A DNA stretch of 29,312 nt from a virus (taxonomy: Duplodnaviria > Heunggongvirae > Uroviricota > Caudoviricetes). The notes beneath the pieces are model-generated. The model saw only the letters and a list, made by a program, of their open reading frames with translations. It did not search any database and was not told the origin of the DNA. Within the stretch, counting starts at the first letter, position 1. Every line of letters begins with the position of its first letter. Position numbers and translations under genes: made by a program. Shown here piece after piece: positions 1 to 11,209 of the stretch. The stretch spans positions 1 to 29,312 of IMG/VR virus record IMGVR_UViG_2778261593_000009; one strand, 5' to 3'.

Positions 1-54
1 GGTATCCGTTCTGCTGAAGTGTCATGGCGTTGATTTTACGGTGACTCTTCGACA

Positions 55-85
55 GTGAAAAGAAAAAAGGCCGCAGAGCGGCCAT
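55..85 (-). terminator. Rho-independent terminator downstream of the minus-strand gene 193-642
   Basis: GC hairpin GGCCGC-aga-GCGGCC (about 69-83) directly preceded on the + strand by an A-run, i.e. followed by a U-run on the - strand. Confidence 0.5.
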
Positions 86-192
86 AACCACAGACAAAAA
101 TCAATAAGTTAGATAATTATCAAATACTTACAGACACGTAAAAACACAACTAACCACAACAAGTAACAGAGATGTGGTCACTTTGTGGATCA

Positions 193-642
193 TCAGCCAA
201 CAAATTTTGCAATGAAATACGTAGCCGCCGCTGTAAAAAGCGAAGTAAAGACGGCTATACACACGGGTATAATGATGCCACTCAACCGCCACTTCGTATT
301 ATCATCAACTTTGTCAAACCGCCGATTCATCTCATCCATAATCTTGTCAAAGCGTTTATCCATCGCTTCGGTAATCTCACCCTTCAGGCTGTTAATGTCT
401 GATTTGATCTGATCTTTCAGGTGAGCTGTATCAGATTTAAGCTCCCCTTTCAGATTCGCAATATCGCATTTAAGATCACCTTTCAGATGTGCTGTGTCTG
501 CTTTGAGCTCACCTTTCACCTCACCAACATCGGCTTTGGTTGAAAGGTTTGTAGTGCGTTCAGCAAGCGTCGCAAGGTCGTTTCTTGTTAGCGATAAATC
601 ACCTTCGAGTCGCTCAATTCGTCTTTCAAGTTTATCTGACAT
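193..642 (-). CDS. Coiled-coil protein with about six 11-residue tandem repeats (LKGELKxDxxx) and a C-terminal hydrophobic membrane anchor; function unknown
   Basis: Track ORF 193-753; start placed at internal ATG (MSDKLERRIE...) because it is immediately preceded by GGAGGTGG. Hendecad periodicity and hydrophobic C-terminus (IIIPVCIAVFTSLFTAAATYFIA) read from the translation. Confidence 0.65.
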   Translation of the reverse strand: MSDKLERRIERLEGDLSLTRNDLATLAERTTNLSTKADVGEVKGELKADTAHLKGDLKCDIANLKGELKSDTAHLKDQIKSDINSLKGEITEAMDKRFDKIMDEMNRRFDKVDDNTKWRLSGIIIPVCIAVFTSLFTAAATYFIAKFVG

Positions 643-753
643 TCCACCTCCACTATTACCGCCTCCTCCACTGAAAGATGGGCCATCATCAAAAGAGTTG
701 CTAATGCCATCACGAATGGGGGTTACGCCATGCCCGCTTTTAGCACACGCCAC

Positions 754-1143
754 TCAGATTCCCTCCCAATCTATATATCCTTTATCTCTTGCCCAACGAA
801 CAACTGTGTGAGCTGTATATGTGGATGTGAAGCCGCAATAAGAACATGACACTTCATACCGGAAATTGTAGATGCTAATGGGGCCGTTCTCCTTACGTAT
901 GGGAGTGACATATTCCCAATCATTTGAATCATCAAGTTCAGGATCAGTGCCGTGAACAACCGTATGTGGAACAAATAGATCTGGGCGTCCACACGAGAGA
1001 CAAGAGGTTTTAGCACCTCTATCTGTGAGAAATTGAATAAATAATTTGGGCGTAATTTTCTGCAAGACCTGCACATGCTCACGTTCCTTATCATTAAGAG
1101 GCCTGCCAAGATATAGAAAATCATCAAATTTAAGAGGCTTCAT
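754..1143 (-). CDS. Hypothetical protein with two CxxC motifs (putative zinc ribbon); function unknown
   Basis: Track ORF 754-1158; start placed at MKPLKFDD, preceded by GGAGAAG; CLSCG and CSYCG motifs; start overlaps the 3' end of int by about 14 nt, suggesting translational coupling. Confidence 0.55.
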   Translation of the reverse strand: MKPLKFDDFLYLGRPLNDKEREHVQVLQKITPKLFIQFLTDRGAKTSCLSCGRPDLFVPHTVVHGTDPELDDSNDWEYVTPIRKENGPISIYNFRYEVSCSYCGFTSTYTAHTVVRWARDKGYIDWEGI

Positions 1144-2122
1144 ATACGGCTTCTCCAAGAGGATTAAATTTCACCGCATCCTGCAAGTAATCCGGCGCAA
1201 GATGGGCATAAATCATCGTTGTCTGAATCTTTGCGTGCCCCAGAATTTTCTGGAGCGTCAGAATATTGCCGCCGTTCATCATGAAATGACTGGCGAAGGT
1301 GTGGCGCAGCGCATGAACAGCCTGGCCATCAGGGACATCAGGTGCGACCGTTTTGATGACATCGCGAACCAATGGATAATCCAGCGTCGGAAACACCAGT
1401 TTCCCGCCCCGTTTTTTGATCTTTTCAAACAGGCTTTCAGAAATAGGAACGGTACGGTTTTTGTTGTTCTTCGTTTTTGAAAAAGTGATTCGACAATGAA
1501 GAACACGGCGCTGCTCCAGTGCCGCTACCTCGCCCCATCGCGCCCCGGTCGACAGAAGGATTTCGACAGCCAGCCGTTCATCGGGATTTTCAGCCAGTGC
1601 ATCCAGCAACTGAACACATTCAGACTTACTCAGATATCCCATTTCGCGCTCGTTAACCTTCATTCCTTTAAGGCCTTGAACGGGGTTATCGTTAAGAAAA
1701 TGGCCGGATGAGATGAGTGCGGTAAACATCGCGCTTAACGCCCCAATCTCTCGATTTATGGTGCTGGGCTGTATCCCCTGCTCTATCCTGGACACACGTA
1801 GCTCGGTGAGCATCGTTGTATTAAGTTTATGCACGCACGGGTCATCCATTGCCTCACTCAAGCGCAGCAATTTAAGGCGCGTGTTATGCCCTGACTTCAT
1901 TAGCTGGCCGTGGTATTTCCACCACAAGTCAATAAGCACTGACAGAGGACGGCGATCAATAGAGTTTCCTTTCCACTCATTGTTATGCTGTTGCGCCAGC
2001 ACCCACCGCTCATATAAAACTGCATCCGATTTCGTTTTAAATTTTTTACGAATGCGTTTGCCTTTTCGCCCCTCCGGGCGCATGTCAAGAAGATACCCTC
2101 CCGGAATTGATTTTATGCTCAT
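1130..2122 (-). CDS. int: Phage integrase, tyrosine recombinase (P2 Int-like)
   Basis: C-terminal catalytic region ALRHTFASHF...LGHAKIQTTMIYAHL (R-H-R-Y family signature); N-terminus MSIKSIPGGYLLDMRPEGRKGKRIRKKF resembles my recollection of P2 Int, so start set at that Met rather than the upstream track start. Confidence 0.9.
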   Translation of the reverse strand: MSIKSIPGGYLLDMRPEGRKGKRIRKKFKTKSDAVLYERWVLAQQHNNEWKGNSIDRRPLSVLIDLWWKYHGQLMKSGHNTRLKLLRLSEAMDDPCVHKLNTTMLTELRVSRIEQGIQPSTINREIGALSAMFTALISSGHFLNDNPVQGLKGMKVNEREMGYLSKSECVQLLDALAENPDERLAVEILLSTGARWGEVAALEQRRVLHCRITFSKTKNNKNRTVPISESLFEKIKKRGGKLVFPTLDYPLVRDVIKTVAPDVPDGQAVHALRHTFASHFMMNGGNILTLQKILGHAKIQTTMIYAHLAPDYLQDAVKFNPLGEAVYEAS

Positions 2123-2171: not shown

Positions 2172-2480
2172 TTAGCCGGGCTGTGTGCCAGTCTTGCGGG
2201 GTTTTTGAGAAGGCGATGTGCTTTTTGGCCCATCAGGGGAGAGAGACGGACTGATCTGCCCAGCAGCCTCATTTGTTTTTCCCGTCATAAGCCAATTCAT
2301 GTACTTAAAAAAGCGAGGGTGATTAACAATCTTGATAAGCACTTCGCCCCCTATGTTTTCAATCCGCCCCGTTTCATAACGACGCAAAGTGCCGATAGGC
2401 ACATCAATCAGGCCGCAAAATTCTTCGCGCGTTAAATCCTCTGATTCACGAATCACTCTAATTTTTTCACCGATAAGCAT
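2172..2480 (-). CDS. C: Immunity repressor, P2 C-like
   Basis: Position immediately upstream of int on the same strand; HTH region and C-terminal FFKYMNWLMTGKTNEAAGQISPSL resembling recalled P2 C; start taken at MLIGEKIRVI (track ORF begins at an upstream alternative start). Confidence 0.7.
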   Translation of the reverse strand: MLIGEKIRVIRESEDLTREEFCGLIDVPIGTLRRYETGRIENIGGEVLIKIVNHPRFFKYMNWLMTGKTNEAAGQISPSLSPDGPKSTSPSQKPRKTGTQPG

Positions 2481-2576
2481 TGACAGTGTTCCTATAAGTA
2501 CACTAAGCTTGCGCACAAGGTGTACTTATAAGTACACCAAGTCACAAACAACCACAGATAGCACAGGTTATCACAC
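2481..2576. promoter_or_regulatory. Divergent promoter/operator switch region between repressor and early operon
   Basis: 18-bp perfect palindrome GTGTACTTATAAGTACAC (about 2521-2538) plus a second copy of the half-site TATAAGTACAC (about 2494-2504) between two divergently transcribed genes. Confidence 0.6.
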
Positions 2577-6160: not shown

Positions 6161-8983
6161 ATGACGGCAGAGCACATCAGGGACTGGCAACAACCGCGCC
6201 ACGCAGTGGGGCGTGAAGGAACGGGGATCCCCGCTCCTGAATCCGCGCTTTCCTCCTGGCTGGATGCCTACCGGGCAGAGAACGAGCGCCGCAAGGAAAT
6301 GGCTGATGCGGCGTTCTCCGCCACGCCGCTGGGCAACCTGATTAATAAAAGCCTGGACGCACAGGAAAAACAGGACAAAACCATCACACTGGCAGGAGAC
6401 GCCAGAAAACAGGCACGCGGCGCAGTGGATGAAGCCATGGCCTCGCTGCGCCTGCTGCCGTCCTATCTGCGCGATCCGCTTATTCGCCACCTCTCCTTCC
6501 TGCGCAAAAAACAGGAAGCCGATCGCCGGAAAGGCAAAAAGAGCTGGCAGGCGGAACGCTATGCACGCGGAACCCTGCGCAAAATATTCGAACGTCTGGA
6601 CCGCACCGATCACCGCTGGCTGACACCGGGTTATCGCTCCCTTGCCGGACGCGAACGCCTGGACGATTTGCTTTACCTGCCGCAGCTCAACAAACACCAG
6701 ATACAGACGCTGGCCACCATGACGGCGGCGATGTTCAGCAGCACCTTCGAAAAACTCTGCGATGGCTTTGGCGCGACCGATGGCGAGCTGACCATGGATG
6801 TAACGCTGAAGGCGTATCAGATGCTGGCCCGCATGGCGTTACACCTGCACGCCATGCCTCCACATTATGACGCACTGACAACAGACAAAGACCGGAGGAA
6901 CGAACCAGACACGGAGCTGCTGCCGGGCGCAATCCTTCGCCTGACCTGTGCGGAATGGTGGAAACGCAAACTGTGGCTGTTACGTTGCGAGTGGCGGGAA
7001 GAACAACTCCGCGCCGCCTGTCTGGTTTCCAGAAAAACATCACCCTATCTGAGCCAGGACGCGTTAAGCGAGTTTCGCGCACAGCGCGAGAAAACACGCG
7101 ATTTCCTGAAAAGTTTCATGCTGGAAAATGAAGACGGGTTCACGATTGATCTCGAGACGGTGTATTACGCGGGAGTAAGTAACCCGGTTCACCGTAAGGC
7201 AGAAATGATGGCCACCATGAAGGGACTGGAACTTCTGGCCGAAGCCCGTGGCGACAGAGCGGTGTTTCTGACTGTCACCTGCCCGTCAAAATACCACGCA
7301 ACAACGGAGAACGGTCATCCGAACCCCAAATGGAACGGGGCCACCATGCGCGACTCCAGCGATTACCTGGTTAACACATTTTTTGCGGCGGTCCGCAAAA
7401 AACTGAACCGCGACGGTCTGCGCTGGTATGGCATCCGCACGGTGGAGCCTCACCATGACGGCACTGTGCACTGGCATATGATGGTCTTTGCACATCCGGA
7501 CGAGATTGAAACCATCGTGTCCCACGTCTGCGATATTGCCATTCAGGAAGACCGCCACGAGCTGGGCGATGACATAACTCCGCGTTTTAAGGCGGAGTAC
7601 GTAGACGGCTCAAAAGGCACACCAACCAGCTACATCGCCACCTACATCGGAAAGAACCTGGACAGCCGCGCCGTGGATGGCATCGACCCGAAAACGGGCA
7701 AGCCACGCGTTGACCACGAAACCGGAAAATCAATGGCCGAGAGCGTGGAACGCGCCATCGGCTGGGCGCGCCTTCACCGGGTCCGCCAGTTCCAGTTCTT
7801 TGGCATTCCCTCCCGTCAGGTGTGGCGTGAACTCCGCCGCCTTGCCAGCCAGATGGCACGCAACCCGGAAGGCCCGCAACGGCTGAAGGATGACGCAATG
7901 GATGCGGTTCTTGCTGCCGCTGATGCCGGGTGTTTTGCCACCTACATTGAAAAACAGGGTGGCGTACTTGTTCCGCGCAAGGACTACCTGATTCGCACAG
8001 CCTACGACCTCGCAGATGAGCTGAACGATTACGGCGAACAGAGTGTACAGATTTACGGGATCTGGTCGCCACTCATCGGGGAATCCTCCCGTGTGTGCAC
8101 GCACCCGGATAACTGGAAGCTGGTAAGACGTAAACCGGAAGCGGAAGACAGCACCCACGAAAATGGTTTTGACCTTCAGGGCGGCCCTGCCGCCCCTTGG
8201 ACTCGTGGCAATAACTGTCCCCGTGTACAGGAAACAGGCAACAGCGGGACAGAACTGTCGGAAGAGCAACCAACACCGTGGCCGCAGATCCCTGACAGCG
8301 TTGATGTGGATGAATGGATGCGCTCACTGAAACGGCACGAACGCCGGGCGCTGATGCGTTCGCTGCGTGACAAACAGGCAAAAAACAGCAGTGATGAAAT
8401 GCAGAGCTGGACACAGAGCCGCAAACAGCCGCGACCTTTGCCTGATAACCACGAGTTACTCGCTAAAGAATGGCGGGAGTCTGCTGAATCTCTCGGCCTG
8501 CATATTGGTGAACAGCAGATGCAGCACCTGTTACGGGGCGGCAGTCTGTACGTTGACGGCAGCATCATTGCACCGCAGGGATTTGAAATTGTACGCAAAC
8601 CGGATACCCGCCCGGACAGCCGAATCACGCAGCTCTGGCAGCGCCTGAGCCGTAATCACGGCGTAAGCAGCACGGAGATCCGCCATAACCCGGTCGCCAG
8701 TTATCTGGAACAGCTAGGGGCATCAGACCCCGAAGCCGCCGCACGCCTGGCATCCACACTTCAGCAAGACCAGAACACCATGAAAACACCCGTTACCGTG
8801 CTTTCTGACATGCTGCGCGCCATCCGTGACGCAGAGCACGCACAGAGAATCAGTGAAACCACTGAACGCGCCCGCCGCAAAGCAAACCTGCTGCGGGGTG
8901 GCCTGACCAGTGGAAACAAAAAACAGACAGAAACGGGATTCACAAATCCCGTAAATGAGCAAAAAACGCGCCGCGATATATGA
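6161..8983 (+). CDS. A: Rolling-circle replication initiation endonuclease, P2 gpA-like
   Basis: HUH-type motif VEPHHDGTVHWHMMVF and paired tyrosines YIATYIGKNLD, matching the conserved motifs of P2 A protein; 940 aa. Confidence 0.85.
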   Translation: MTAEHIRDWQQPRHAVGREGTGIPAPESALSSWLDAYRAENERRKEMADAAFSATPLGNLINKSLDAQEKQDKTITLAGDARKQARGAVDEAMASLRLLPSYLRDPLIRHLSFLRKKQEADRRKGKKSWQAERYARGTLRKIFERLDRTDHRWLTPGYRSLAGRERLDDLLYLPQLNKHQIQTLATMTAAMFSSTFEKLCDGFGATDGELTMDVTLKAYQMLARMALHLHAMPPHYDALTTDKDRRNEPDTELLPGAILRLTCAEWWKRKLWLLRCEWREEQLRAACLVSRKTSPYLSQDALSEFRAQREKTRDFLKSFMLENEDGFTIDLETVYYAGVSNPVHRKAEMMATMKGLELLAEARGDRAVFLTVTCPSKYHATTENGHPNPKWNGATMRDSSDYLVNTFFAAVRKKLNRDGLRWYGIRTVEPHHDGTVHWHMMVFAHPDEIETIVSHVCDIAIQEDRHELGDDITPRFKAEYVDGSKGTPTSYIATYIGKNLDSRAVDGIDPKTGKPRVDHETGKSMAESVERAIGWARLHRVRQFQFFGIPSRQVWRELRRLASQMARNPEGPQRLKDDAMDAVLAAADAGCFATYIEKQGGVLVPRKDYLIRTAYDLADELNDYGEQSVQIYGIWSPLIGESSRVCTHPDNWKLVRRKPEAEDSTHENGFDLQGGPAAPWTRGNNCPRVQETGNSGTELSEEQPTPWPQIPDSVDVDEWMRSLKRHERRALMRSLRDKQAKNSSDEMQSWTQSRKQPRPLPDNHELLAKEWRESAESLGLHIGEQQMQHLLRGGSLYVDGSIIAPQGFEIVRKPDTRPDSRITQLWQRLSRNHGVSSTEIRHNPVASYLEQLGASDPEAAARLASTLQQDQNTMKTPVTVLSDMLRAIRDAEHAQRISETTERARRKANLLRGGLTSGNKKQTETGFTNPVNEQKTRRDI

Positions 8984-9058: not shown

Positions 9059-10018
9059 ATGAAAATTTGTATCGACGACGGCTCCACCAACATCAAGCTG
9101 GCATGGACTGAGAACGGCGAACGCCGCAACGCCATCAGCCCGAACAGCTTCAAGTCGGAATGGTCAGCGCCGTTCGGTGGCACGCAGCCCGCGAACTACA
9201 TGCTTGATGGCGTGCGCTATGGTTTTGATCCGGTCAGCGATCGCTTTGTCCAGACGACCGACACGCAATACCAGTACAGCGATGTGAATGTTATTGCCAT
9301 TCATCATGCGCTGGTCAAATCAGGCATCACACCACAGGAGGTGGATGTGGTTGTCACCCTGCCACTGAGCGAGTATTTCGATACAAACGCACAGCCGGAC
9401 ATGGCCAACATCAGCCGCAAAAAAGCGAACGTTATGCGCCCGGTGGAGTACCAGAACGGCGAAGCATTCACTATCCGTAACGTGCGGGTTATGCCTGAAT
9501 CCATTCCGGCAGGCTTTAAAGCACTGGCTGACATGAGTCCGTTTGAATCCCTGCTGATTGTGGATTTGGGCGGAACCACGCTGGATGTGGCAAAGGTTCA
9601 GGGGCAACTGGCAGGTATCAGCCAGGTGTTTTGCGATCCACACGTAGGCGTTTCTCTGATGGCCGATGCCGTGCTGTCGGTGATGGCCACCAACGGTATG
9701 CGTACCAGTCACCACATCGCTAATACCATTATCGAACATCGCCACGATGAAGCCTGGCTGCGCCAGCACATCCACAATGACGCGCATTACGCCAGCCTGA
9801 TGGCAGTTATTCGTGAAAAGGAGGAAACACTGAAACAACGCGTGATCCGCGCGCTGGCGGGTTTTTCGGGTTACGGGCGGGTGATGGTTGTCGGTGGAGG
9901 GGCGGAGATTGTGGCACCCGCCATCCGCGAAGCCTGCGGAGTTAATGCGACTTTCATCGCGGACGGGGTGCCACAGTTTGCTCTGGTTAATGGGCTGTAC
10001 GCAATGGACAAGGAGTAA
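9059..10018 (+). CDS. parM: Actin-like segregation ATPase ParM (StbA)
   Basis: N-terminus MKICIDDGSTNIKLAW and motifs DVNVIAIHHAL, VMPESIPAG, LIVDLGGTTLD, FSGYGRVMVVGGGAE, LVNGLY closely parallel plasmid R1 ParM as I recall it. Confidence 0.85.
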   Translation: MKICIDDGSTNIKLAWTENGERRNAISPNSFKSEWSAPFGGTQPANYMLDGVRYGFDPVSDRFVQTTDTQYQYSDVNVIAIHHALVKSGITPQEVDVVVTLPLSEYFDTNAQPDMANISRKKANVMRPVEYQNGEAFTIRNVRVMPESIPAGFKALADMSPFESLLIVDLGGTTLDVAKVQGQLAGISQVFCDPHVGVSLMADAVLSVMATNGMRTSHHIANTIIEHRHDEAWLRQHIHNDAHYASLMAVIREKEETLKQRVIRALAGFSGYGRVMVVGGGAEIVAPAIREACGVNATFIADGVPQFALVNGLYAMDKE

Positions 10019-10022
10019 ACCA

Positions 10023-10334
10023 ATGACGACACCAACCAGACGGATAAGTTTCTATCTGAAGCCCGCCGCCGTCAAGAACGAAGGCGAAGCATGCGCCTGG
10101 CTGGACAGCCTTACACCAGAAGCCCGCAAAAGCGGCCAACGCGTGGCTTTTCTGGCCGGGCTGGCACTTCTGAAAATGAATCCGGCAGAGGCTTACCGAC
10201 TGGCTGCATGGGCTGATGATGAAGCGTTATCAGTGACACAGACCAGGACAGAACGCCCCGCATCACAGCCAGTATCAACCGCACAGATAACCAGCCAGAT
10301 GGCCGGGAATATCCAGGCGTTATTTCCTGAATAA
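10023..10334 (+). CDS. parR: ParR-like centromere-binding adaptor
   Basis: Small gene immediately downstream of parM with AGGAG SD; ISFYLKP...AFLAGLALL resembles the R1 ParR N-terminal pattern. Confidence 0.6.
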   Translation: MTTPTRRISFYLKPAAVKNEGEACAWLDSLTPEARKSGQRVAFLAGLALLKMNPAEAYRLAAWADDEALSVTQTRTERPASQPVSTAQITSQMAGNIQALFPE

Positions 10335-10460
10335 CACAACATCAGGGCATATTTGCCCTGATATCCCCTCTCAAACAAGGCAGCAACAAACTGCCCGTTG
10401 AATAACACAAATTACATGTTATGATTAACTCATAAGTAACCCCCGTTTGTGTCTTACGTT

Positions 10461-10835
10461 ATGAATGATCAAGATTATGGGCTTGATACCCTATTGGATA
10501 TGCACGGCTACCAGCACCACATGGATAATGGCTACTGGTGGAAGATTGAAGCCTACCGGGTCAGCCCAAGCCCATTCAGACCCCACGGGATACGTTACAA
10601 TCTGACATTACATGACCAGTACAATTCCCGCATATTTGGGATGGATAATGCTCATGGAATAAAACCACCGAAGAAGGGCCGTTTCACAGGGAAATTAACT
10701 GTTTACGACCATGTGCACCGCACAACATTTGACAAAGGCTATCCCTATGAATTCATTTCTGCGGAACAGCTTTTATCTGACTTCTTCGATAACGTAGATC
10801 GCATCATTGACGAAATCACAAGGGGGAATCAATGA
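10461..10835 (+). CDS. Hypothetical protein, first gene of a coupled two-gene module
   Basis: Track ORF starts at GTG 10449; first ATG at 10461 (MNDQDYGLD...); His/Tyr/Trp-rich; I recognise no family. Confidence 0.55.
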   Translation: MNDQDYGLDTLLDMHGYQHHMDNGYWWKIEAYRVSPSPFRPHGIRYNLTLHDQYNSRIFGMDNAHGIKPPKKGRFTGKLTVYDHVHRTTFDKGYPYEFISAEQLLSDFFDNVDRIIDEITRGNQ

Positions 10836-11209
10836 AAGCCCGTATCGGGATTATCCCTGAAAATATCCTCCGCCAGCGGCTACTGGATGTCGCCAGAGGA
10901 AAACGTAAACCACTGCCAGATGAACCAAAAGTATGGTTTTCTTCACTGCACGCTGTAGGGCAAGCTCTGAGTAACGAAAACATTGCTCTGTTACGTCTGA
11001 TGGATGAAGAAAAACCTCAAACAATGACAGAGTTGGCAGAAATGTCAGGCAGGAAACTGAGCAATCTTTCAGTAACCTTAAAAATGCTGAGCGGCTACGG
11101 TTTTGTCAGCCTGGAAAAGAAAGGCAATACCATTCTCCCGAAAGCATTATTCACCGATTTTGAAATCATCATTGATCCATCTGTCGGAACCACTCATCGG
11201 GCCGCCTGA
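10832..11209 (+). CDS. Putative winged-helix DNA-binding protein, second gene of the module
   Basis: ATGA overlap with the upstream gene; HTH-like segment MTELAEMSGRKLSNLSVTLKMLSGYGFVSLEK. Confidence 0.55.
   Translation: MKARIGIIPENILRQRLLDVARGKRKPLPDEPKVWFSSLHAVGQALSNENIALLRLMDEEKPQTMTELAEMSGRKLSNLSVTLKMLSGYGFVSLEKKGNTILPKALFTDFEIIIDPSVGTTHRAA

What the first reader, a model, noticed from the sequence alone, without database searches (positions are those of the whole stretch)
193..1143. Integrase-distal cargo pair: zinc-ribbon protein plus membrane-anchored hendecad coiled-coil protein
Two genes lie downstream of int on the same strand, the first overlapping the int 3' end, between int and the presumed left attachment site. 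The pair looks more AT-rich than the phage core and ends at its own terminator. The double-CxxC protein plus a tail-anchored coiled-coil protein resembles no canonical P2 gene I know, so it is a candidate moron such as superinfection exclusion, abortive infection or a membrane effector.
Basis: partly seen in the sequence, partly recalled or inferred. Interest (0 to 1): 0.65.

Follow-up and report, generated by a model that had tools for sequence, protein, structure and literature searches.

The report
Prophage zinc-ribbon plus membrane-stalk gene pair
Two uncharacterised genes at the edge of a P2-like E. coli prophage form a conserved, mobile pair (a small zinc-ribbon protein and a membrane-anchored coiled-coil stalk) that many temperate phages of enteric bacteria carry inside their lysogeny operons; this makes it a good but untested candidate for a new prophage protection system.

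Summary
Both genes lie inside the prophage. attL, a ~27-bp core containing the host ihfA terminator, is at window ~55-83. ORF2 (754-1143, minus strand) is a 129-aa protein with four cysteines invariant in 68 family representatives. It has no Pfam, PADLOC, NCBIfam or structural relative. ORF1 (193-753) reads: N-terminal leader, poly-glycine tether, hendecad coiled coil, C-terminal transmembrane helix. It resembles DUF1640/CCDC90 and XhlA, but scores below both Pfam thresholds.

The pairing held in all 12 lineage groups I examined. These span P2-like, 186-like, P22-like and siphoviral prophages of Enterobacterales. The pair usually sits in the same gene string as the maintenance repressor (C/cI-int, or mnt at P22's sieA position).

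A 96.7%-identical sister prophage lacks the pair. At the same site, [zinc ribbon + leader] is swapped as a cassette, with a breakpoint at the glycine linker. Stalk length varies in exact 11-residue steps.

My best reading (about 40%) is a lysogen-expressed membrane module for phage exclusion or abortive infection, in which the zinc-ribbon protein docks on the tethered leader. The function is untested. I rate it a new variant of a known kind, of moderate interest.

The parts
1..83 (.). Host flank: the btuC-ihfA intergenic region. The window starts just after the btuC stop codon.
   Evidence: 100% match over 1-83 in nearly all of the 5,426 complete E. coli genomes. The empty site in K-12 continues ...ggccgcagagcggcc|tttttagttagatcag into the ihfA stop.
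55..83 (.). attL core, about 27 bp: tgaaa(a)gaaaaaaggccgcagagcggcc.
   Evidence: The same sequence, with one indel, recurs at attR next to ihfA in strain STEC388 (L024 ~10460-10487) and in the empty site.
59..83 (-). Intrinsic terminator: stem GGCCGC-TCT-GCGGCC at 83-69, then a T-run. It is the ihfA terminator and part of the att core, and it ends the C-int-ORF2-ORF1 gene string.
   Evidence: Terminator scan. Present in the empty site and at attR. No other minus-strand terminator was predicted between 2516 and 84.
193..753 (-). ORF1 ('B'), 186 aa: a tail-anchored protein built as leader, poly-Gly, coiled coil, TM. The GTG start abuts the ORF2 stop, with a GGGAGGG Shine-Dalgarno 8 nt upstream.
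   Evidence: CCDC90-like/DUF1640 at E 4.4e-6, 27.1 bits (below the GA of 33.5). phrog_9415 1.4e-12 and phrog_6324 6.7e-11. dN/dS is 0.16 for the coil and 0.14-0.19 for the TM segment.
670..753 (-). Leader peptide (residues 1-28, MACAKSGHGVTPIRDGISNSFDDGPSFS). It is fast-evolving and co-inherited with ORF2.
   Evidence: The frame stays open and the start abuts or overlaps the upstream stop in every lineage examined. phrog_6324 aligns to residues 17-66. Leader identity tracks ORF2 identity (rho 0.73) but not the rest of B (rho 0.17). dN/dS is 0.4-3.2 on few sites.
643..669 (-). Poly-glycine tether GGGGNSGGG (residues 29-37). It is also the recombination breakpoint of the allele swap and is Shine-Dalgarno-like for the internal ATG.
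   Evidence: A Gly-rich run is present in 11 of the 12 lineage groups. The identity profile against L026 switches from 50-70% to 92-98% here.
640..642 (-). Internal ATG (Met38), the alternative start that RefSeq uses. A short isoform without the leader is possible.
   Evidence: RefSeq CDS in STEC388 and many other genomes. GGAGGTGGA lies just upstream. A Met follows the Gly run in most lineages, but not in the P22-like one.
289..642 (-). Coiled-coil stalk (residues 38-155), about 10 hendecads, roughly 17 nm if fully helical.
   Evidence: 11/3 periodicity p=0.002 and lag-11 identity 33%. Register printed.
529..546 (-). LSTKAD (residues 70-75). It matches the beta-layer motif [aliphatic]-A-T-K-[polar]-[DE] described for the start of the DUF1640 stalk.
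   Evidence: Sequence. Motif as given in PMC4786415. TKAD or TKSD is conserved across the long-stalk homologues but absent from the short SPN3UB/P22-type partners.
414..518 (-). 33-bp tandem repeats encoding LKGELKxDxAx hendecads. Copy number is polymorphic between strains.
   Evidence: TRF: period 33, 3.2 copies, score 112. The segment between TKAD and AMDKRFD is 20, 31, 42, 53, 64 or 75 aa in 34 of 35 homologues.
211..279 (-). C-terminal transmembrane anchor (about residues 159-181), preceded by the conserved DDNTKW motif. It has two alleles.
   Evidence: Hydropathy. W155 and R145 are invariant in alignment A5. Identity to L026 drops to 60% at 201-260.
754..1143 (-). ORF2 ('A'), 129 aa: a cytosolic C4 zinc-ribbon protein of the phrog_4293 family. 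It has no Pfam family.
   Evidence: phrog_4293 7.4e-27. No Pfam, NCBIfam or PADLOC hit. 68 representatives at 50% identity among 1.84 billion proteins. dN/dS 0.14-0.29.
991..1002 (-). First zinc knuckle, C48-L-S-C51.
   Evidence: Invariant in 68 sequences.
835..846 (-). Second zinc knuckle, C100-S-Y-C103-G, followed by a helix containing invariant W117.
   Evidence: Invariant in 68 sequences. In the AlphaFold model, strands 94-100 and 106-110 and helix 111-120 have pLDDT 83-90.
1130..2122 (-). Tyrosine integrase (context). Its last 14 nt overlap the ORF2 start.
   Evidence: Int_N 1.5e-28 and Phage_integrase 3.9e-20. Junction sequence.
2172..2480 (-). C/CI-type HTH repressor (context), first gene of the leftward lysogeny operon.
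   Evidence: HTH_3 and phrog_147 3.3e-30. RefSeq homologues are 102-103 aa.

Best explanation
The pair is a mobile two-gene accessory operon of temperate Enterobacterales phages. In this window it forms the 3' end of the leftward lysogeny gene string (C repressor, int, ORF2, ORF1, att-core terminator), so it should be made in the lysogen. B (ORF1) is inserted into the inner membrane by its C-terminal helix. It projects a DUF1640/XhlA-like hendecad coiled-coil stalk, probably trimeric, about 17 nm into the cytoplasm. At the tip, a flexible poly-glycine tether carries a short, fast-evolving leader peptide. A (ORF2) is a soluble C4 zinc-ribbon protein translated just upstream, with its stop abutting the B start. 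I infer that A docks on the cognate leader, so that [A + leader] is the specificity or sensing module and [stalk + TM] is the membrane-acting module. The most likely role is prophage-conferred protection against other phages, either superinfection exclusion or abortive infection. In that model a signal received by A/leader changes the state of the XhlA/holin-like membrane anchor. Shown here: anatomy, prophage location, cargo status, conservation of the pairing, lysogeny-operon context, cassette swapping and stalk-length polymorphism. Inferred: co-transcription, A-leader binding, trimeric state, and the anti-phage function.
For: (1) The pair lies inside the prophage. The host match ends at position 83, and the att core is shared by attL, attR and attB.
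(2) It is accessory. A sister prophage 96.7% identical over window 2891-25000 has int 167 bp from the host pheL gene and no pair. Only 39 of 5,426 E. coli genomes carry it. GC is 43.7% against 52.6%.
(3) Both genes are real. dN/dS is 0.14-0.29 for A and 0.14-0.19 for the coil and TM of B. Four Cys are invariant in 68 representatives.
(4) The pairing is obligate. In all 12 lineage groups examined, the gene immediately downstream of the zinc-ribbon gene encodes leader, Gly-rich run (11 of 12), coiled coil and C-terminal TM, with start and stop abutting or overlapping.
(5) The context is lysogeny or immunity operons. C-int-A-B in E. coli, Salmonella, Klebsiella and Serratia. cI-...-A-B-int in Dickeya and Yersinia 186-like prophages. 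A Mnt-like RHH gene followed by A-B, between immI and gene 16 in P22-like phages, which is where P22 has sieA (PMC10883804). Next to arc/ant in SPN3UB. No minus-strand terminator or promoter was predicted between C and the pair.
(6) There is cassette swapping. Against L026, C/int are 97-100% identical, ORF2 plus leader 50-70%, and the stalk 92-98%. Three unrelated [A + leader] alleles occupy the same site. Leader identity correlates with A identity (rho 0.73) but not with the rest of B (rho 0.17).
(7) Stalk length varies in exact hendecad steps, and the TM alleles recombine independently.
(8) B partners match XhlA PF10779 (E 8e-7 to 2e-4), phrog_689 'holin' and phrog_1193 'hemolysin'. In PBSX, XhlA is a membrane protein needed together with holin XhlB for lysis (PMC5589764).
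Against: There are no functional data of any kind. PADLOC gives ORF2 nothing, and gives ORF1 only low-scoring coiled-coil hits. The DUF1640 and XhlA matches are below Pfam gathering thresholds, and coiled coils attract spurious matches. A-leader docking rests only on co-inheritance, which physical adjacency of the coding segments could partly explain. I could not run a complex prediction. Leader dN/dS is about 0.4-3 on few sites, so it does not by itself prove translation, and RefSeq often starts B at the internal ATG. B exposes almost nothing to the periplasm, unlike the multi-pass SieA. Co-transcription with C/int is inferred from scans, not shown.
Confidence: 0.4

Rival explanations
1. Lysogenic-conversion factor aimed at host physiology rather than at other phages. 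In this reading it is a cytoplasm-facing membrane scaffold, as MCUR1/CCDC90B are in mitochondria, or like the E. coli tail-anchored coiled-coil proteins ElaB, YqjD and Flk. It would recruit a host component through A or the leader.
For: NCBI names homologues DUF1640/CCDC90 family, and the beta-layer motif and C-terminal TM fit that family. In Dickeya the pair sits next to another tail-anchored protein with an Flk_N domain in the same operon. The lysogeny-operon context fits any lysogen-expressed function.
Against: Allelic hypervariability of [A + leader] between otherwise 97-100% identical prophages, and the repeat-number polymorphism, are more typical of conflict systems than of modules that target a conserved host component. 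The DUF1640 match is sub-threshold and there is no head domain. No PDB relative was found.
Confidence: 0.18
2. Regulator of the phage's own lysis-lysogeny, immunity or excision circuit. For example, it might sequester or release a regulator at the membrane.
For: The pair is always found in immunity or lysogeny modules: C/cI-int operons, the mnt operon of P22-like phages, and next to arc/ant in SPN3UB. A is a zinc ribbon, a fold common in nucleic-acid-binding and regulatory proteins. Its weak structural neighbours are NrdR, TFIIS and eIF2-beta ribbons, none significant.
Against: A sister phage with the same body and a functional-looking C-int module does without the pair. Different alleles sit behind the same 97-100% identical C/int, which argues against tight co-adaptation with the regulatory circuit. 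In Providencia the pair sits next to ogr, away from the immunity genes.
Confidence: 0.13
3. Lysis accessory: an XhlA-like holin partner or antiholin that tunes lysis timing.
For: Short B partners match XhlA (26-30 bits), phrog_689 'holin' and phrog_1193. Two possible translation starts in B (GTG 753 and ATG 642) recall dual-start holins.
Against: The pair is not in a lysis cassette. The phage's holin and M15 peptidase lie in the late region, about 20 kb away in the sister prophage annotation. The pair is oriented and placed with the lysogeny genes. No holin or endolysin is adjacent in any of the contexts examined. XhlA scores are below threshold.
Confidence: 0.1
4. Selfish addiction (toxin-antitoxin-like) module with no benefit to the host: B is a membrane toxin and A is its antidote.
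For: The two genes are tightly coupled, with the putative neutraliser first. In the closest relative (99.3% identical, strain 300709) an IS3 insertion truncates the TM anchor of B. There is allelic diversity.
Against: No TA family hit. The IS insertion is a single event. This rival overlaps heavily with an abortive-infection reading and is hard to separate from it without experiments.
Confidence: 0.08

Closest known systems
DUF1640 / CCDC90-like family (Pfam PF07798; MCUR1, CCDC90B, yeast Fmp32, and prokaryotic homologues)
   Same: Single C-terminal TM anchor with the bulk of the protein on the cytoplasmic or matrix side. A long non-heptad coiled-coil stalk. The beta-layer motif at the start of the stalk (LSTKAD here, against [aliphatic]-A-T-K-[polar]-[DE], PMC4786415). 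NCBI annotates homologues as 'DUF1640 domain-containing' or 'CCDC90 family protein'.
   Different: The window protein scores 27.1 bits, below the gathering score of 33.5. There is no globular head domain; in its place are a 28-aa leader and a poly-Gly tether. Profile search gave no match to any solved structure beyond generic coiled coils. It is phage-borne and obligately paired with a zinc-ribbon gene.
XhlA of Bacillus prophage PBSX (Pfam PF10779)
   Same: A small phage-encoded protein with an N-terminal coiled coil, a D-x-N-x-K-W-like motif and a C-terminal TM. The short B partners in SPN3UB-like and P22-like phages match the HMM over nearly its full length (E 8e-7 to 2e-4).
   Different: All scores are below the gathering score of 34.7 (window ORF1 scores 15.3 bits). 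XhlA lies in a lysis cassette with holin XhlB and endolysin XlyA and is needed for lysis (PMC5589764). The present pair lies in lysogeny operons, has a zinc-ribbon partner and has no adjacent holin or endolysin.
P22 SieA superinfection-exclusion protein
   Same: Prophage-expressed inner-membrane function. In P22-like prophages the pair occupies the equivalent slot, downstream of mnt and between immI and gene 16 (PMC10883804).
   Different: No sequence similarity was seen in any search. SieA is a single inner-membrane protein acting on the ejection proteins. B is tail-anchored with almost no periplasmic exposure, and needs or accompanies a soluble partner.
P2 non-essential lysogenic-conversion genes old, tin and fun(Z) (from my own knowledge of P2)
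   Same: Non-essential cargo in a P2-family prophage, of lower GC than the phage core and absent from close relatives.
   Different: They sit at a different genomic position (between int and attL, rather than after gene A or in the tail region). There is no homology. Here there is no promoter of its own detectable by a simple scan.
E. coli tail-anchored coiled-coil proteins (ElaB/YqjD/YgaM DUF883; Flk) (from my own knowledge)
   Same: The same topology: a cytoplasmic coiled coil followed by a C-terminal TM.
   Different: No detectable homology. Those proteins are chromosomal, single genes without a zinc-ribbon partner.

Membership tests
DUF1640 / CCDC90-like (PF07798) | Pfam HMM score at or above the gathering threshold (33.5 bits) | tested here: not met
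   27.1 bits, E 4.4e-6, covering profile positions 75-154 only. Several close homologues do carry a precomputed PF07798 hit.
DUF1640 / CCDC90-like (PF07798) | C-terminal single transmembrane anchor | tested here: met
   Hydropathy maximum 2.17 at residues 159-177, with few residues after the hydrophobic stretch. Conserved in all partners.
DUF1640 / CCDC90-like (PF07798) | Beta-layer motif [aliphatic]-A-T-K-[polar]-[DE] at the start of the stalk (PMC4786415) | tested here: met
   L70-S-T-K-A-D75. TKAD or TKSD is conserved in the long-stalk members of A5. The Dickeya homologue has six tandem ATKADLQxx nonads.
DUF1640 / CCDC90-like (PF07798) | N-terminal globular head domain preceding the stalk | tested here: not met
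   Only a 28-aa variable leader, a 9-aa Gly run and about 32 aa of coil precede the motif. The Pfam match does not cover profile positions 1-74.
DUF1640 / CCDC90-like (PF07798) | Trimeric coiled coil | not testable with these tools
   Hendecad periodicity is shown, but the oligomeric state is not.
XhlA (PF10779) | Pfam HMM score at or above the gathering threshold (34.7 bits) | tested here: not met
   Window ORF1 scores 15.3 bits. Short partners score 21.9-29.6 bits.
XhlA (PF10779) | Location in a lysis cassette next to a holin and an endolysin | tested here: not met
   No holin or endolysin adjoins the pair in any of the contexts examined. The phage's holin and M15 peptidase are in the late region.
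C4 zinc ribbon (ORF2) | Two CxxC knuckles conserved across the family, on a beta-hairpin scaffold | tested here: met
   C48, C51, C100 and C103 are invariant in 68 sequences. The model places the second knuckle between strands 94-100 and 106-110. The best, non-significant structural neighbours are zinc ribbons.
C4 zinc ribbon (ORF2) | Binds zinc | not testable with these tools
   Needs metal analysis of purified protein.
Moron (autonomous phage cargo unit) | Absent from close relatives, with atypical base composition | tested here: met
   The sister prophage lacks it. GC is 43.7% against 52.6%. It occurs in unrelated phage types.
Moron (autonomous phage cargo unit) | Own promoter and own terminator | tested here: not met
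   No minus-strand sigma-70-like site was found between 2516 and 84. The only terminator is the att-core/ihfA hairpin. The scan is crude, so a weak promoter cannot be excluded.
Known anti-phage defence systems (PADLOC-DB v2.0.0) | HMM match to a catalogued defence protein | tested here: not met
   ORF2 has no hit at E<=1. ORF1 has only weak coiled-coil matches (ZorA, LmuB and similar, 11-19 bits).
Superinfection exclusion / abortive infection (functional class) | Reduces plating or productive infection of a challenging phage | not testable with these tools
   Only positional and evolutionary arguments are available.

The most novel reading that the evidence does not exclude
The pair is a previously unrecognised kind of prophage immunity device, a 'tethered-ligand' sensor. 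A hypervariable leader peptide is held on a glycine leash at the tip of a length-polymorphic alpha/beta coiled-coil stalk anchored in the inner membrane. A cognate zinc-ribbon protein reads it. Engagement or release, triggered by an incoming phage component, switches the XhlA-like anchor into a membrane-damaging or DNA-entry-blocking state. Two translation starts in B (with and without the leader) could add a holin/antiholin-like layer of control.
Probability: 0.22. Interest if true: 0.78.

Novelty: new variant of a known kind. Interest (0 to 1): 0.55.

Why it matters
If the pair is protective, it adds a new and compact two-gene system to the prophage-encoded defence and exclusion repertoire. 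It is missed by PADLOC-DB v2.0.0 and is unannotated or inconsistently annotated in RefSeq. Its architecture (zinc ribbon, tethered leader, coiled-coil stalk of variable length) is not described for any defence system I know of.

It would also give the first functional handle on the bacterial side of the DUF1640/MCUR1 and XhlA-like tail-anchored coiled-coil proteins, whose prokaryotic role is unknown.

Even without a function, the natural series of hendecad copy numbers (1 to 6 units) and the Dickeya array of six ATKADLQ nonads are ready-made material for studying non-heptad and beta-layer coiled coils.

The clean cassette swap at a glycine linker is a neat example of modular evolution.

All of these points can be tested directly with cloned genes and standard phage panels.

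Tried and rejected
Searches that found nothing for ORF2:
- Pfam, NCBIfam and PADLOC gave no hit.
- PDB sequence searches gave nothing for ORF2, and only generic coiled coils for ORF1 and for the B-family profile.

Searches for more loci that failed:
- The single genome-contig scan, run with the enterobacterial alignment, returned one spurious Patescibacteria hit.
- Four viral-contig scans and both metagenome scans with distant family members found nothing.
- The third homologous-protein search, with the 68-sequence profile, added only one protein.

Literature searches for DUF1640, XhlA with defence, the sieA locus, and tail-anchored prophage proteins found no paper on this pair.

Ideas considered and rejected:
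- The pair as host genes: rejected by att mapping.
- ORF2 as an Ogr/Delta-type activator or an Int accessory factor: rejected because the length and Cys spacing differ, Ogr/Delta genes are annotated elsewhere in related prophages, and the pair is not int-linked in P22-like and SPN3UB-like phages.
- The 'VTPIR' string shared by ORF2 and the ORF1 leader as meaningful: rejected because it is not conserved in ORF2 homologues.
- tRNA or Rfam elements in the region: none apart from the host STnc540 remnant.
Full report
**What is there.**
On the minus strand the left end of the window reads, in order:
- a C/CI-type HTH repressor (2172-2480);
- a tyrosine integrase (1130-2122);
- ORF2 (754-1143, 129 aa);
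- ORF1 (193-753, 186 aa from a GTG; 149 aa from the internal ATG at 642).

The ORF2 ATG lies 14 nt inside the end of int. The ORF1 GTG follows the ORF2 TGA with no gap, and a GGGAGGG Shine-Dalgarno sequence lies 8 nt upstream.
- ORF2 has two CxxC knuckles.
- ORF1 ends in a strongly hydrophobic helix (residues ~159-181).
- The ORF1 helical part has hendecad rather than heptad periodicity. The 11/3 period gives p=0.002 against 20,000 shuffles, while 3.5 is not significant. Residue identity at lag 11 is 33%.
- There is a 33-bp tandem repeat at 414-518.
- The pair is 43.7% GC, against a prophage mean of 52.6% (sd 4.0). Only 0.9% of equal-sized windows are as low.

**Where the prophage ends.**
Window 1-83 matches the btuC-ihfA intergenic region of nearly all of the 5,426 complete E. 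coli genomes. In an empty site (K-12) the sequence ...gaaaagaaaaaaggccgcagagcggcc runs on into the ihfA stop codon. In the window it is followed at position 84 by phage DNA. In strain STEC388, which carries a prophage with the same integration module, the same ~27-bp core recurs next to ihfA at attR.

So attL is at ~55-83 and both genes lie inside the prophage.

The 'own terminator' is the att core itself. The hairpin at 69-83 is the ihfA terminator, present in attB and regenerated at attR. Because attP must contain the core, the phage does carry this hairpin downstream of ORF1 in its free form too.

**It is cargo.**
- A prophage 96.7% identical over window 2891-25000 is integrated at pheA with a different C-int module. 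Its integrase lies 167 bp from the host pheL gene, with nothing in between.
- Only 39 of 5,426 complete E. coli genomes have any part of the pair, always on the chromosome.
- The phage itself belongs to the P2 family. It has GPA replication endonuclease, and the sister prophage annotation lists P2-family capsid, GPO scaffold, gpM, Cox and Ogr/Delta genes.

**ORF2.**
It has no Pfam, NCBIfam or PADLOC match. It belongs to phrog_4293, of unknown function (7.4e-27).

An exhaustive HMMER search of 1.84 billion cluster representatives found 68 relatives, all 83-180 aa. In a 68-sequence alignment (the window protein, five close homologues and 62 of these representatives) the four cysteines and W117 are invariant. 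Every named member comes from Enterobacterales and is annotated 'hypothetical': Escherichia, Salmonella, Klebsiella, Hafnia, Serratia, Dickeya, Providencia, Citrobacter and Yersinia, plus Enterobacter phage records by tblastn.

dN/dS against three homologues is 0.14-0.29, so it is a real gene under purifying selection.

**ORF1.**
The sequence reads, from the N-terminus:
- leader MACAKSGHGVTPIRDGISNSFDDGPSFS;
- tether GGGGNSGGG;
- MSDKLERRIERLE..., a coil that includes LSTKAD;
- about ten hendecads;
- ...DDNTKW;
- the transmembrane helix.

It matches Pfam CCDC90-like/DUF1640 at E 4.4e-6 but below the gathering score (27.1 against 33.5 bits), and XhlA only weakly. NCBI nevertheless names homologues 'DUF1640 domain-containing' or 'CCDC90 family'.

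LSTKAD fits the beta-layer motif [aliphatic]-A-T-K-[polar]-[DE]. Hartmann et al. report that motif at the start of the stalk of DUF1640 membrane proteins (PMC4786415). The head domain of that family is missing.

The shorter partners in other phages match XhlA over nearly its whole length (E 8e-7 to 2e-4, below threshold), as well as phrog_689 'holin' and phrog_1193 'hemolysin'. In PBSX, XhlA is a membrane protein needed together with holin XhlB and the endolysin for lysis (PMC5589764).

Neither the single sequence nor the family profile finds a solved structure beyond generic coiled coils.

**The pairing is conserved.**
I examined every distinct zinc-ribbon lineage for which I could obtain DNA. 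In each one the gene immediately downstream encodes a leader, a Gly-rich run (absent only in Yersinia), a coiled coil and a C-terminal TM. Its start abuts or overlaps the upstream stop.

The lineage groups were:
- three alleles at the btuC-ihfA site (window type, L026 type, L041 type);
- Klebsiella L017 and L030;
- Serratia L045;
- Dickeya L043;
- Yersinia L046;
- Providencia L047;
- P22-like L020-22;
- SPN3UB and the ST101-KPC2phi6.1 type (L018, L019);
- the distant L023.

The contexts differ, but most are lysogeny or immunity modules:
- C, int, A, B, prophage end (E. coli, Salmonella, Klebsiella, Serratia);
- cI, (other membrane proteins), A, B, int (Dickeya and Yersinia 186-like prophages);
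- a Mnt-like RHH gene, then A and B, between the immI genes and ejection gene 16 in P22-like prophages;
- next to arc/ant in SPN3UB;
- next to ogr in Providencia, the one case away from the immunity genes.

The P22-like slot is the one that holds sieA in P22. That placement is from my knowledge of the P22 map; the sieA-orf59a-mnt cluster is mentioned in PMC10883804.

In the window no minus-strand terminator or sigma-70-like promoter was predicted between C and the pair. I therefore infer co-transcription from the repressor promoter, as is known for P2 C-int. This is an inference.

**Modular evolution.**
Compared with L026, a prophage at the same site, C and int are 97-100% identical. ORF2 plus the leader (1160-640) drop to 50-70%, the stalk (620-261) returns to 92-98%, and the TM segment (260-201) drops to 60%.

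At this one site there are at least three unrelated [zinc ribbon + leader] alleles: 129-132 aa, 166 aa and 116 aa zinc ribbons. In blastn, 15 E. coli genomes match the whole pair and most of the remaining 24 match only window 193-663 or 193-671, which places the breakpoint at the glycine linker.

Across eight loci, leader identity tracks zinc-ribbon identity (Spearman rho 0.73) but not the rest of its own protein (rho 0.17). Zinc ribbon against the rest of B gives rho 0.03. The pairs are not independent, so the p-value is only indicative.

The simplest reading is that the zinc-ribbon protein and the leader form one functional unit, probably a binding pair, joined by a flexible tether to an exchangeable stalk-and-anchor unit.

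The stalk is length-polymorphic in exact register. The segment between TKAD and AMDKRFD is 20, 31, 42, 53, 64 or 75 residues in 34 of 35 homologues, which corresponds to 1-6 hendecads. The two TM alleles occur with both leader types.

**Is the leader translated?**
Evidence for:
- the frame is open back to the upstream stop in every lineage;
- start codons abut or overlap that stop;
- the P22-like partner has no Met after the Gly run;
- phrog_6324 aligns across leader, Gly run and first coil.

Evidence against:
- leader dN/dS is 0.4-3.2 on few sites;
- RefSeq frequently starts at the internal ATG, which has GGAGG-like Gly codons just upstream.

Both isoforms may exist. This is unresolved.

**Mechanism.**
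My best-supported model, at about 40%, is a lysogen-expressed membrane module used in phage-phage conflict.
- B anchors in the inner membrane and holds the leader about 17 nm into the cytoplasm.
- A binds the leader.
- [A + leader] provides specificity.
- The XhlA-like anchor provides the membrane effect.

The arguments for a conflict role are the position in prophage-expressed operons (including the sieA slot), the cargo status, the mobility among unrelated temperate phages, and the allelic and length hypervariability.

The arguments against are the absence of any experiment, the absence of any catalogued defence homologue, the sub-threshold family matches, and B's negligible periplasmic exposure.

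The rivals are:
- a host-directed conversion scaffold (0.18);
- a regulator of the phage's own immunity or excision circuit (0.13);
- a lysis accessory (0.10);
- a purely selfish toxin-antitoxin-like module (0.08).

In the closest relative of the window (99.3% identical, strain 300709) an IS3 element truncates the TM anchor of ORF1. That fits a dispensable or costly membrane protein, but it is a single event.

**Novelty and verdict.**
The components resemble known kinds: a zinc ribbon, and a DUF1640/XhlA-like tail-anchored coiled coil. The overall category, prophage accessory genes in lysogeny operons, is familiar. The specific two-gene architecture, its obligate pairing and its cassette behaviour are, as far as my database and literature searches show, undescribed.

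I classify it as a new variant of a known kind, with interest 0.55. It is a well-defined and directly testable candidate, not an established system.

Noticed in passing
window 9059-10334: A plasmid-type actin-like partition module sits just downstream of the GPA replication gene (6161-8983). It comprises ParM (StbA_N 4e-82 and the ParM C-terminal domain) plus a Plasmid_stab_B protein. This is the position where P2 carries its tin/old cargo (from my own knowledge of P2). A partition system in an integrating P2-family prophage is unusual (also annotated in the sister prophage).
   Followed up: partly
window 10449-11209: Two further small ORFs follow the partition module. One has an HVO_A0114/MarR-like winged helix (1e-15) and the other has no family. 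They look like more cargo of unknown role.
   Followed up: no
window 2486-2503 and 2520-2537: Two copies of an 18-bp palindrome (GTGTACTTATAAGTACAC-like), 34 bp apart, lie in the divergent region between the C repressor and the rightward early gene. They are probably the repressor operators.
   Followed up: no
window 1-124; L002 1501-1659: The integration site lies inside the Rfam sRNA family STnc540 (RF02082). That family covers the 3' end of ihfA and its terminator. It scores 67.4 bits in the empty site but only 21.9 bits in the window, because the prophage splits it. The att core regenerates the ihfA terminator at attR.
   Followed up: partly
window 751-756; L037 3998-4003: ORF2 and ORF1 are in the same reading frame, separated only by TGA followed directly by GTG. 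The Salmonella allele is arranged the same way. Other alleles overlap by 4 to roughly 26 nt. Read-through would give a zinc-ribbon-to-stalk fusion. I did not test this.
   Followed up: no
L035 603-2256 (E. coli strain 300709): In the closest relative of the window's left end (99.3% identical), an IS3-family element is inserted in the TM-coding end of ORF1. The C-terminal anchor is replaced by ...PVCIEPPRESWRLNSLRKR*. In strain 2-1 an IS1203 element instead interrupts int.
   Followed up: yes
L043 2804-5063 (Dickeya zeae 186-like prophage): The B homologue here carries six tandem 9-residue ATKADLQxx units, an array of beta-layer motifs in nonad spacing. The same cI-int operon also encodes a signal-peptide protein and a second tail-anchored protein with an Flk_N domain.
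   Followed up: partly
L024 8627-10199 (E. coli STEC388, attR end of the related prophage): The attR-proximal end carries other cargo. A DUF2971 protein and a Hok/Gef family toxin gene flank the ogr/Delta gene, all upstream of ihfA.
   Followed up: no
window 754-1143 and RefSeq records: Annotation is inconsistent. ORF2 is left unannotated in many RefSeq E. coli genomes and in the Salmonella assemblies. ORF1 is variously called from the GTG, from other upstream starts or from the internal ATG, giving products of 112-192 aa. The window's ORF2 also has a 3-residue deletion (DD---SNDWEY) relative to all six close homologues.
   Followed up: partly
L045 994-3447; L046 5187-6266: Other cargo travels with the pair in related prophages. 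In Serratia there is a VasI-domain protein between the repressor and int, and a 278-aa membrane protein after int. In Yersinia there is a 359-aa PIN_12 protein after int.
   Followed up: no
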